A stretch of DNA of 64,000 nt from a virus (taxonomy: Duplodnaviria; Heunggongvirae; Uroviricota; Caudoviricetes), in IMG/VR virus record IMGVR_UViG_3300047160_005224, positions 32,403-96,402 of that record; one strand, 5' to 3'. Under the pieces are notes generated by a model. It saw nothing but the letters and a program-made list of their open reading frames with translations, did no database searches and was not told the origin of the DNA. This document shows positions 62,496 to 62,703 of the stretch, piece after piece. Within the stretch, counting starts at the first letter, position 1. The number at the start of each line of letters is the position of its first letter. The position numbers and the translations under genes are program-made.

Positions 62496-62703
62496 AGGAT
62501 GTGCTTACCGTTTACGCGCTCTACCATTAAGCTACCTCACCACCAAAGCAATCTGGCATCAACCGGGTCTAGGGCATTGAGCCTTGCGATACGGAGATTT
62601 TACCTTCCCCTTTCGCGACCAAATTGCTCAGGTGATGAGGGTGGGATTCGAACCACACACTTCGTCCTTCTGATGGAATGGTTGTAAGTGCTGCAGACAT
62701 CCT
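62496..62703 (-). ncRNA. Circularly permuted tRNA-like RNA (copy 1)
   Basis: Order 5'-AGGATGT-CTGCAGCA, anticodon-like arm, T arm, acceptor 3' strand, linker hairpin, acceptor 5' strand, D arm, ACATCCT-3'. Confidence 0.6.

What the first reader, a model, noticed from the sequence alone, without database searches (positions are those of the whole stretch)
62496..62703. Circularly permuted tRNA-like RNA in a phage tRNA array
The tRNA halves are in swapped order. An anticodon-like hairpin (UCC-AUCAGAA-GGA), a T arm (UUCGAAU) and acceptor 3' strand CCUCAUC-ACC come first. An ~85-nt self-paired linker follows, then acceptor 5' strand GGUGAGG and a canonical D arm (UAGCUUAAUGGUAGAGC). The ends are clamped by CUUAC/GUAAG and AGGAUGU/ACAUCCU. 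Permuted tRNAs are known from some algae and an archaeon, and permuted tmRNA from some bacteria; I know of no phage example. Processing could give a two-piece tRNA mimic.
Basis: partly seen in the sequence, partly recalled or inferred. Interest (0 to 1): 0.75.

Follow-up and report, generated by a model that had tools for sequence, protein, structure and literature searches.

The report
Phage Y-RNA-like tRNA mimic
The "scrambled tRNA" is real, but it is one of five small RNAs in this phage that share a conserved handle also seen in amoeba "Class I" RNAs, and they travel with a Ro60-shaped phage protein, pointing to an undescribed Y-RNA-like particle.

Summary
Observation confirmed. On the minus strand, 62703→62496 holds an anticodon-like hairpin, T arm, acceptor 3' strand, capped linker, acceptor 5' strand and D arm, closed by two helices.

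It is not an algal- or archaeal-type permuted tRNA gene. It is the largest tRNA-like member of a modular RNA family. All members share a handle: a 7-bp closing stem that covaries, an unpaired YUNCAGCAA next to its 5' strand, and a 3' GU(U). The cargo varies: anticodon-like hairpins, tRNA elbows in the T–acceptor–D order of bacterial YrlA Y RNAs, or a ~260-nt RNA.

This phage has five copies, three of them in the window. Dozens more lie in tRNA arrays of large phages, including KVP40, DLP6 and cyanophage BUCT-ZZ01.

Rfam's nearest family is the Dictyostelium Class I RNA (up to 30.8 bits; cut-off 41.5). It has the same stem geometry, motif and AG…CUGU ends.

Every reasonably complete genome with the RNA encodes a DUF2828/vWA protein whose predicted fold matches Ro60. 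Seven tRNA-array phages lack both.

Best reading: Y-RNA-like partners of that protein displaying tRNA look-alikes. Binding, RNA ends and function are inferred.

This scan noted the same family on other DNA many times. I found no publication describing it.

The parts
62496..62703 (-). Copy A, the finding: a 208-nt handle RNA with a tRNA-like cargo
   Evidence: Sequence; fold z = -3.5; orthologue L047:3007-3132
62697..62703 (-). Stem 1, 5' strand AGGAUGU. It pairs with 62496-62502 (ACAUCCU).
   Evidence: Family-wide, stem 1 is 100% paired in 41 distinct sequences, 6 of 7 pairs show compensatory changes, and 0 of 500 shuffles reach this
62689..62696 (-). Conserved unpaired handle motif CUGCAGCA (family consensus YUNCAGCAA)
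   Evidence: C, A, G, C, A are invariant in the alignments; it aligns to CCUUACAGCAA of Rfam RF01414
62684..62688 (-). Stem 2, 5' strand CUUAC. It pairs with GUAAG at 62504-62508.
   Evidence: equivalent helices in the other copies
62665..62677 (-). Anticodon-arm homologue: 3-bp stem with the 7-nt loop AUCAGAA (U33-like and A37/A38-like positions, 'CAG'), followed by a variable-loop-like CGAAGUGU
   Evidence: about 60% of family members carry such N-U-NNN-R-N loops. In three relatives (L047, L040, L019) and KVP40 tRNA-Pseudo-3 a NGGUC variable loop follows.
62641..62658 (-). T arm (loop UUCGAAU, stem with one bulged nucleotide)
   Evidence: T-stem covariation across long forms
62631..62640 (-). 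Acceptor-like 3' strand CCUCAUC plus ACC
   Evidence: Pairs with GGUGAGG (62535-62541). ACC pairs with GGU (62542-62544) in the minimum-free-energy fold.
62542..62630 (-). 89-nt self-paired extension that caps the acceptor-like stem. It is specific to this phage; the orthologue has an 8-nt cap.
62518..62541 (-). Acceptor-like 5' strand GGUGAGG, U8-A9-like UA, and D arm GCUU-AAUGGUA-GAGC
63882..63973 (-). Copy B: a 92-nt handle RNA with T arm, capped 7-bp acceptor-like stem (cap ACCCAAUC) and a D-like hairpin
   Evidence: 43.2 bits. The DLP6 orthologue at KU682439 111657-111760 has a covaried D-like stem.
62943..63234 (-). Copy E: handle (GGUUUGG/CCAAACC, UUACAGCAA, 3' GUU) around a ~260-nt cargo
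   Evidence: Sequence. The orthologue at L047 ~2171-2473 has the same ends. An RNA contig covers 63221-62964.
62896..62950 (-). Hammerhead type III-like element. Its predicted cut, after GUU at 62943, coincides with the 3' end of copy E.
   Evidence: Rfam RF00008 32.2 bits (cut-off 48.5), E 2e-4. Stem I is weak by inspection, and the element is absent in relatives.
62709..62785 (-). tRNA-Pro(CGG). It ends 5 nt before copy A.
62398..62485 (-). tRNA-Leu(GAG). It starts 10 nt after copy A.

Best explanation
Copy A is a small structured RNA of a phage family built like Y RNAs. All members share a conserved 'handle': a 7-bp stem joining the 5' and 3' ends, the unpaired motif YUNCAGCAA next to the 5' strand, and a 3' GU(U). 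The cargo varies. In copy A it is a nearly complete tRNA body (anticodon-arm remnant, T arm, sealed acceptor-like stem, D arm with all elbow nucleotides) in the same permuted order as bacterial YrlA.

The RNAs sit in tRNA slots and are co-transcribed with the tRNA array. They are probably released by the enzymes that mature the neighbouring tRNAs (inferred).

The handle is most likely the docking site for the phage's own Ro60-shaped DUF2828/vWA protein (477 aa, genome 123513-124946, outside the window). The tRNA look-alike cargo would then recruit, titrate or present itself to tRNA-binding factors. This would parallel the way Ro60-Y RNA particles tether other enzymes.

Shown here: the RNA architecture, covariation, family distribution, co-occurrence and frequent adjacency with the protein gene, and the protein's predicted Ro60-like fold. 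Inferred: transcription and processing, direct binding, and the biological role. A role in conflicts over host or phage tRNAs is plausible.
For: Five copies in this genome share the handle but carry different cargos.

The family recurs in about 30 IMG/VR contigs with the exact stem, and covariance model R1 finds many divergent copies.

Stem 1 is 100% paired, 6 of 7 pairs show compensatory changes, and 0 of 500 shuffles reach this. KVP40 has a fully covaried stem.

The T, acceptor-like and D helices pair with different sequences in 10 long forms.

All copies are co-oriented with the nearest tRNAs (72 of 72). Typical gaps are 5-8 nt after CCA and 9-10 nt before the next tRNA.

The YrlA model has the same T-hairpin-D order (PMC4201824).

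DUF2828 (PF11443) scores above its cut-off in 8 of 8 RNA-bearing genomes that are complete or hold the region. It is absent from 7 tRNA-array phages that also lack the RNA. Fisher p = 0.0007.

The RNA lies directly beside the gene in G001, BUCT-ZZ01 and G010 and about 0.7 kb downstream in G009. It lies within 5 kb, always co-oriented, in 12 of 80 further loci.

The AlphaFold model of the protein (pLDDT 75) has Ro60 structures as its top 13 PDB matches, from E 1.7e-8 and over the full length. Reviewed Ro60 entries are the top Swiss-Prot matches. A MIDAS DxSxS motif is present.
Against: No experiment or read-level data shows a stable RNA from copy A.

In this phage the protein gene lies about 18 kb from the tRNA array, and no handle RNA lies beside it.

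Only 15% of the sampled DUF2828 loci had a detectable RNA within 5 kb.

The co-occurrence sample is small and partly made of related phages.

The handle bears no resemblance to the known Ro60-binding motifs: GGUCCGA in animals and GNCGAAN0-1G in bacteria.

The protein is not detected by the TROVE Pfam model, and its fold match is moderate (TM about 0.5).

The function of tRNA-like domains is unknown even for YrlA.
Confidence: 0.6

Rival explanations
1. The handle is only a cis-acting processing or stability element of the polycistronic tRNA transcript. It would act as a punctuation hairpin recognised by host RNases, with no dedicated protein partner, and the cargos would be incidental tRNA remnants.
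For: The elements occupy stereotyped tRNA slots, with UUUU before and GU(U) plus an A/U-rich spacer after. In this phage the Ro60-like gene is far away.
Against: An invariant 6-9-nt single-stranded motif and conserved, covarying cargos (the T, acceptor-like and D helices; the ~260-nt cargo of copy E) are more than a punctuation hairpin needs. The strict co-occurrence with DUF2828, and copies lying outside tRNA arrays directly next to that gene, argue for a partner.
Confidence: 0.14
2. It is a genuine circularly permuted tRNA gene. The transcript would be circularised or cut at the acceptor cap by RNase P and 3' enzymes, CCA would be completed, and the product would act as a chargeable (possibly two-piece) tRNA reading CUG.
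For: The acceptor stem has 7 bp, A73-like plus CC follows it, and the D and T arms are canonical. N-CC(A) follows the acceptor 3' strand in 7 of 10 long forms. M. smegmatis YrlA is cut by RNase P and gains CCA in vivo (PMC4201824). KVP40 'tRNA-Pseudo-3' has the same parts in normal order with a CCA end.
Against: The anticodon-like stem has only 3 bp, and there is no bulge-helix-bulge junction. In copy A the ACC is paired within a helix of more than 20 bp. Three of 10 relatives seal the stem with loops that lack CCA. Most family members have no acceptor, T or D parts at all. The phage already encodes tRNA-Leu(CAG) and 36 other tRNAs. No RtcB ligase is encoded.
Confidence: 0.07
3. It acts as a free decoy or sponge, independent of the Ro60-like protein. 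The displayed anticodon-like loops and tRNA elbows would soak up host anticodon nucleases or other tRNA-targeting defence enzymes.
For: About 60% of members display canonical anticodon-like loops with varied 'anticodons', including Lys, Asn, Asp, Tyr, Met and Arg types that known nucleases target. The location is a phage tRNA array, and such arrays are thought to counter tRNA-directed defences (background knowledge).
Against: No tRNA species is enriched, and many members carry other loops such as AUUGG. This reading does not explain the invariant handle or its link to DUF2828.
Confidence: 0.1
4. It is a canonical YrlA-type Y RNA that works with a TROVE-family Ro60 (Rsr) supplied by the phage or the host.
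For: It has the same T-acceptor-D permuted tRNA-like domain. Copy A even contains GACGAAG, which fits the GNCGAAN0-1G Ro-binding motif (PMC4201824). The long form in L047 gives a full-length YrlA alignment.
Against: The YrlA score is 35.9 bits against a cut-off of 69, no better than junctions between adjacent tRNAs. The GNCGAA motif is not conserved in the other long forms. There is no TROVE gene in this genome or in five relatives, even at E = 10 for this genome. The hosts are too diverse for a protein found in only a minority of bacteria.
Confidence: 0.04
5. It is decayed tRNA debris or a DNA-level repeat (miniature transposon or recombination site) with no RNA function.
For: The flanks are short inverted repeats, and there are many copies per array.
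Against: The stem covaries instead of keeping a fixed terminal repeat. The motif is strand-specific and always co-oriented with tRNAs. Cargo helices show compensatory changes between distant phages.
Confidence: 0.03

Closest known systems
Bacterial and phage Y RNAs of the YrlA type with Ro60/Rsr (Rfam RF02553; Chen et al. 2014, PMC4201824; Thermus phage phiLo Ro60-Yrl1/2, PMC12135203)
   Same: Both are modular RNAs. A stem formed by the 5' and 3' ends serves as the protein handle. The tRNA-like domain has the order T arm, sealed acceptor-like stem, D arm. Both are multi-copy and phage-encoded. The partner is a ring-plus-vWA protein of Ro60 fold.
   Different: The handle motif differs: YUNCAGCAA rather than GNCGAA or CGAA. 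The protein belongs to DUF2828/DUF7788, which the TROVE model does not detect. The RNAs sit in tRNA arrays, often far from the gene. The cargos range from a bare anticodon-like hairpin to ~260 nt. The Rfam score is far below the cut-off.
Dictyostelium Class I RNAs (Rfam RF01414; Kjellin et al. 2021, PMC7919456)
   Same: Both have a terminal 6-7-bp covarying stem beginning A-G and ending C-U, followed by GU. Both carry the motif C-CU(U)ACAGCAA immediately after the 5' strand and have a variable interior. Length is about 50-65 nt and GC is low (short forms). There are many genes per genome. RF01414 is the top Rfam hit for the short forms.
   Different: The phage motif is one nucleotide shorter in most copies. 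Scores are 21-31 bits against a cut-off of 41.5. There is no DUSE promoter; the phage RNAs lie in tRNA operons. The hosts are phages, not amoebae. The known amoeba binder is an RRM protein, and no RRM gene is found in these phages. The long forms with tRNA bodies have no amoeba counterpart.
Circularly permuted tRNA genes of Cyanidioschyzon and other algae and Thermofilum (PMC3978253)
   Same: The 3' half of a tRNA-like sequence precedes the 5' half, and the two are joined through the acceptor ends.
   Different: There is no bulge-helix-bulge splice junction and no 5-bp anticodon stem. No splicing endonuclease or ligase context exists. The termini lie in a conserved handle that non-tRNA cargos also use.
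T4 species 1 and 2 RNAs (rnaC, rnaD)
   Same: They are stable small RNAs of unknown function encoded inside a T4-type tRNA cluster.
   Different: They have no handle motif or closing stem of this kind. T4 has neither the RNA family nor DUF2828.

Membership tests
Circularly permuted tRNA gene (algal/archaeal type) | 3' half upstream of 5' half, joined at the acceptor ends | tested here: met
   Order read directly from the sequence
Circularly permuted tRNA gene (algal/archaeal type) | Bulge-helix-bulge motif at the junction of the transcript ends | tested here: not met
   The ends form a 7-bp helix, an 8-nt 5' bulge with a 1-nt 3' bulge, then a 5-bp helix. There is no 3-nt/4-bp/3-nt motif.
Circularly permuted tRNA gene (algal/archaeal type) | A complete cloverleaf with a 5-bp anticodon stem after rejoining | tested here: not met
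   The anticodon-like stem has 3 bp, and an extra arm (stems 1 and 2) lies between the D arm and that hairpin
YrlA / Y RNA-like (RF02553) | tRNA-like domain in the order T arm, acceptor-like stem-loop, D arm, closed by a 5'/3' stem | tested here: met
YrlA / Y RNA-like (RF02553) | Score at or above the Rfam gathering cut-off (69 bits) | tested here: not met
   Copies A and B get no hit at E <= 10. The best relative scores 35.9 bits, similar to junctions between adjacent tRNAs.
YrlA / Y RNA-like (RF02553) | Conserved GNCGAAN0-1G Ro-binding motif in the 5' strand | tested here: not met
   GACGAAG occurs in copy A only and is not conserved in the other nine long forms
YrlA / Y RNA-like (RF02553) | Encoded next to a TROVE-domain Ro60/Rsr gene | tested here: not met
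   No PF05731 match in this genome (even at E = 10) or in five relatives
Dictyostelium Class I RNA (RF01414) | Short covarying stem joining the 5' and 3' ends | tested here: met
   7 bp, 100% paired, 6 of 7 pairs compensatory
Dictyostelium Class I RNA (RF01414) | 11-nt motif CCUUACAGCAA adjacent to the 5' strand of the stem | tested here: inconclusive
   The phage consensus is C-CU-N-CAGCAA, one nucleotide shorter. Copy E has UUACAGCAA.
Dictyostelium Class I RNA (RF01414) | Conserved AAG start and CUGU end | tested here: inconclusive
   The DNA reads (U/A)AGG...CCUGU(U) at the stem ends. The true RNA ends are not determined.
Dictyostelium Class I RNA (RF01414) | Score at or above the Rfam gathering cut-off (41.5 bits) | tested here: not met
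   Scores are 21-31 bits, full length. RF01414 is the top family for both short forms tested.
Dictyostelium Class I RNA (RF01414) | DUSE promoter about 60 nt upstream; dictyostelid genome | tested here: not met
   The elements start 5-8 nt after a tRNA, inside phage tRNA operons
Handle RNAs paired with a DUF2828 Ro60-like protein (unpublished; noted repeatedly by this scan) | Closing stem plus unpaired ACAGCAA-type motif around a variable, often tRNA-like, cargo | tested here: met
Handle RNAs paired with a DUF2828 Ro60-like protein (unpublished; noted repeatedly by this scan) | DUF2828/vWA gene of Ro60-like fold in the same genome | tested here: met
   PF11443 81.6 bits at genome ~124 kb. Pfam finds DUF7788 plus DUF2828. 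Ro60 structures are the top 13 PDB fold matches.
Handle RNAs paired with a DUF2828 Ro60-like protein (unpublished; noted repeatedly by this scan) | RNA genes lie beside the protein gene | tested here: not met
   In this phage the gene is about 18 kb from the array, with no copy next to it. Adjacency holds in G001, BUCT-ZZ01, G010 and G009, and in 12 of 80 other loci.
Handle RNAs paired with a DUF2828 Ro60-like protein (unpublished; noted repeatedly by this scan) | Physical binding of the protein to the handle | not testable with these tools
   No protein-RNA docking or binding assay is available
Two-piece (permuted) tmRNA | Alanine identity pair G3-U70, a tag reading frame, and an ARAGORN call | tested here: not met
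   There is no G3-U70 and no coding piece. ARAGORN finds the phage's real permuted tmRNA elsewhere, at genome 107724-108112.

The most novel reading that the evidence does not exclude
The phage handle and the hallmark of Dictyostelium Class I RNAs are the same RNA module, recognised by the same kind of partner. If so, Class I RNAs are not unique to social amoebae. They would be the eukaryotic branch of a very widespread Y-RNA-like system whose protein is the DUF2828/DUF7788 Ro60-like ring. The uncharacterised pull-down protein DDB_G0281243 would be the obvious candidate in the amoeba. In phages this particle would display tRNA look-alikes, such as copy A, in conflicts over tRNAs.
Probability: 0.35. 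Interest if true: 0.9.

Novelty: new variant of a known kind. Interest (0 to 1): 0.8.

Why it matters
It would add a second, much larger branch to the Ro60/Y-RNA world. The protein family has thousands of members, all labelled "hypothetical". Its RNA partners are hidden among the tRNA genes of large phages, including culturable models (KVP40, DLP6, a Synechococcus phage), so the idea is directly testable.

It would also give a first mechanistic lead for Dictyostelium Class I RNAs. Their function has been open since 2004, and they were reported as unique to dictyostelids.

For annotation, it explains "pseudo-tRNAs" and structured spacers in phage tRNA arrays.

Tried and rejected
**Rfam**
- At gathering thresholds Rfam finds only tRNAs.
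- A permissive scan gives no family for copies A and B. The weak YrlA hit there is a junction between two adjacent tRNAs.

**Protein partners**
- TROVE, RRM_1 and RtcB are absent from this phage and its relatives.

**Other phage RNAs**
- T4 rnaC and rnaD do not share the module.

**Similarity searches**
- BLAST of short forms against GenBank phages returns mostly noise outside the handle.
- The 15-mer scan of viral contigs returned mostly chance hits. These had to be filtered by the paired 3' strand.
- The genome-contig scan gave 15 hits against about 8 expected by chance. Only L174 is convincing.

**Alignment and structure**
- MAFFT cannot register the interiors or the acceptor caps, so these helices were tabulated sequence by sequence.
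- The proposed GC:GY extension of stem 1 is only 76% paired and has no compensatory change.
- The fold of the whole copy E region is not distinctive (z = -1.2).

**RNA reads**
- The one metatranscriptome that holds this DNA gave contigs only. It has no cover over copy A apart from a 13-nt loose end, which cannot show presence, absence or ends of the RNA.

**Dictyostelium link**
- I could not establish what DDB_G0281243 is. The 2011 pull-down paper is not in the library, and organism names are masked in the AlphaFold cluster search.

**Other**
- The RNase P-like RNA in L048 is not framed by the handle.

Full report
**Setting.** The window is positions 32403-96402 of a complete 166,771-bp virus with direct terminal repeats. 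Its closest named relative is Stenotrophomonas phage DLP6. All tRNA genes lie on the minus strand. The array runs beyond the window and holds 37 tRNAs plus a permuted tmRNA.

**The observation.**
- a 7-bp closing helix, AGGAUGU/ACAUCCU;
- a second helix, CUUAC/GUAAG;
- a hairpin with the 7-nt loop AUCAGAA;
- a T arm;
- an acceptor 3' strand CCUCAUC followed by ACC;
- an 89-nt self-paired linker;
- the acceptor 5' strand GGUGAGG starting at 62541;
- UA and a canonical D arm.

The predicted fold reproduces these helices, with z = -3.5. In that fold ACC is paired with GGU, so the acceptor-like stem continues into a long helix. A second, 92-nt copy at 63973→63882 has the same ends, a T arm, a sealed 7-bp acceptor-like stem and a D-like hairpin.

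**What is conserved.** Searching the whole genome for the 5' end motif gave four copies: A, B, and C and D outside the window. Their ends are alike (UAGGAUGY-CUNCAGCA ... RCAUCCU-GU) but their interiors are very different. Copy C holds only a nested hairpin. A fifth copy, E (63234→62943), has stem GGUUUGG/CCAAACC, the motif UUACAGCAA, a 3' GUU and a ~260-nt interior. Its orthologue in a related contig keeps both ends and much of the interior.

Anchored pattern scans of IMG/VR found about 30 contigs with the same stem. All hits lie in tRNA arrays. They come as short forms of 47-70 nt and long forms of 92-136 nt. A covariance model of the end module (R1) then found many divergent copies, up to six per array. 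It also found copies in DLP6 (4), Vibrio phage KVP40 (1) and Synechococcus phage BUCT-ZZ01 (3), but none in T4.

Across 41 distinct sequences stem 1 is always paired. Six of its seven pairs show compensatory changes, no shuffle out of 500 reaches that value, and shifted controls collapse. The elements are co-oriented with their nearest tRNAs in 72 of 72 cases. They typically start 5-8 nt after a CCA and end 9-10 nt before the next tRNA. A scan of 185,579 prokaryotic genomes gave about the number of hits expected by chance, with one convincing case. The family is therefore essentially a feature of phage tRNA arrays.

**The tRNA-like cargo.** In ten long forms the T stems (eight different sequences) and the acceptor-like stems (all different, 6-8 bp) always pair. 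UA plus a D arm follows in seven. The T loop and D loop keep the elbow nucleotides. The hairpin before the T arm is followed by a variable-loop-like NGGUC in three relatives (L047, L040, L019) and in KVP40 tRNA-Pseudo-3, so it is an anticodon-arm remnant.

About 60% of all members display a canonical anticodon-like loop with varied triplets. N-CC(A) follows the acceptor 3' strand in seven of ten long forms, but three seal the stem with loops that lack it. KVP40's annotated "tRNA-Pseudo-3" carries the same parts in normal tRNA order, with the handle helix closed by a loop. The order T arm, sealed acceptor, D arm, closed by a 5'/3' stem, is that of bacterial YrlA Y RNAs (PMC4201824).

**Comparison with Rfam families.** YrlA membership fails:
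- The scores are at most 35.9 bits against a cut-off of 69, no better than junctions between adjacent tRNAs.
- The Ro-binding motif GNCGAA is not conserved.
- There is no TROVE gene.

Unexpectedly, the best Rfam match for short forms is the Dictyostelium Class I RNA, RF01414. The alignments are full-length at 21-31 bits (cut-off 41.5), with E = 1.5e-4 in the best case, and they fall exactly on the copies found by my own model. Published Class I features match closely: a stem of 6 bp (7 bp counting the flanking A-U pair) that joins the ends and covaries, an AAG start, a CUGU end, CCUUACAGCAA right after the 5' strand, a variable interior, about 60 nt, low GC and many genes per genome. They were reported as absent outside dictyostelids (PMC7919456). 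I found no paper linking them to phages.

**The partner protein.** After I had reached the Class I link, this scan's earlier notes showed that the same handle had been seen in many other phage genomes. They named a DUF2828/vWA "Ro60-like" neighbour. I tested that lead here.

PF11443 scores above its cut-off in this phage (477 aa, genome 123513-124946, outside the window). It also does so in G001, G002, DLP6, KVP40, BUCT-ZZ01, G009 and G010. It is absent from T4 and from six other cultured phages with tRNA arrays, and those seven also lack the RNA. The only discordant case is a contig that is 51% complete. Fisher p = 0.0007.

The RNA lies directly beside the gene in G001, BUCT-ZZ01 and G010, about 0.7 kb downstream in G009, and within 5 kb in 12 of 80 further loci. 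All 15 R1 hits in those 12 loci lie on the gene's strand. In this phage no copy lies next to the gene.

The protein carries DUF7788 plus DUF2828, a weak VWA_2 match and a MIDAS motif. It has no sequence match in the PDB and more than 7,900 unnamed homologues. Its AlphaFold model (pLDDT 75) has Ro60 structures as its top 13 PDB matches, including a Thermus phage Ro60 that binds Y-like RNAs. Reviewed Ro60 entries are the top Swiss-Prot matches.

**Expression.** One rhizosphere metatranscriptome holds part of this DNA, but only as contigs. One RNA contig covers the interior of copy E. Another joins the end of tRNA-Pro (62708) to 62512→62500, skipping 195 nt of copy A that the DNA contigs carry intact. 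With a single contig and 13 nt of evidence, this cannot be interpreted.

**Conclusion.** The element is a real, conserved, tRNA-mimicking small RNA. It is best filed as a Y-RNA-like partner of a Ro60-shaped phage protein. It uses a handle that differs from known Y RNAs and closely resembles that of amoeba Class I RNAs. Binding, RNA ends and function remain inferred.

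Noticed in passing
window 62896-62950 (-): Hammerhead type III-like element with an intact CUGAUGA and GAAA core and good stems II and III, but a weak stem I (Rfam 32.2 bits, cut-off 48.5). Its predicted cleavage after GUU (62943) would create exactly the conserved 3' end of handle RNA copy E. The orthologous locus L047 has no such element and runs straight into tRNA-His.
   Followed up: partly
window 62943-63234 (-): Copy E: the same handle encloses a ~260-nt cargo whose first ~130 nt are well conserved in L047 ~2171-2473. No Rfam family matches the cargo. 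A metatranscriptome contig (depth 13.9) covers 63221-62964.
   Followed up: partly
window 62708 joined to 62512 (-): One metatranscriptome contig (151 nt, depth 2.7) joins the tRNA-Pro 3' end directly to the last part of copy A, skipping 195 nt that the DNA contigs carry intact. It could be a strain deletion, reverse transcriptase skipping a structured RNA, or an RNA-level event.
   Followed up: no
window 62319-62393 (-): A tRNA that the Rfam tRNA model finds (34.2 bits) but ARAGORN misses. Its anticodon loop has 10 nt (ACUCCCUAAC) and contains CUA. The relative DLP6 has an annotated amber-suppressor tRNA-Sup-CTA in a similar place.
   Followed up: no
genome 107724-108112 (-), outside the window (L148): The phage encodes a circularly permuted (two-piece) tmRNA with the tag ANDDTFEVRLAA at the far end of the tRNA array.
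   Followed up: no
L129:1451-1566 (Vibrio phage KVP40, NC_005083 179301-179416): The annotated 'tRNA-Pseudo-3' is a normal-order tRNA with a CCA end. It carries the handle helix (closed by a loop) plus G-CUCCAGCA inserted between the D arm and an Asn-type anticodon hairpin. It is a non-permuted version of the long forms.
   Followed up: partly
L048:8645-8903: A ~260-nt RNA between two tRNAs of a 180-kb viral contig matches the archaeal RNase P RNA model at 39.6 bits (cut-off 84, E 2e-8). It may be a phage-encoded RNase P-like RNA. It is not framed by the handle.
   Followed up: partly
window 63240-63500 and 63600-63860 (-): Small open reading frames (about 85 aa) predicted to be membrane proteins lie interleaved with the tRNAs and handle RNAs. 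A similar one lies in the related contig L047 (about 2564-2838).
   Followed up: no
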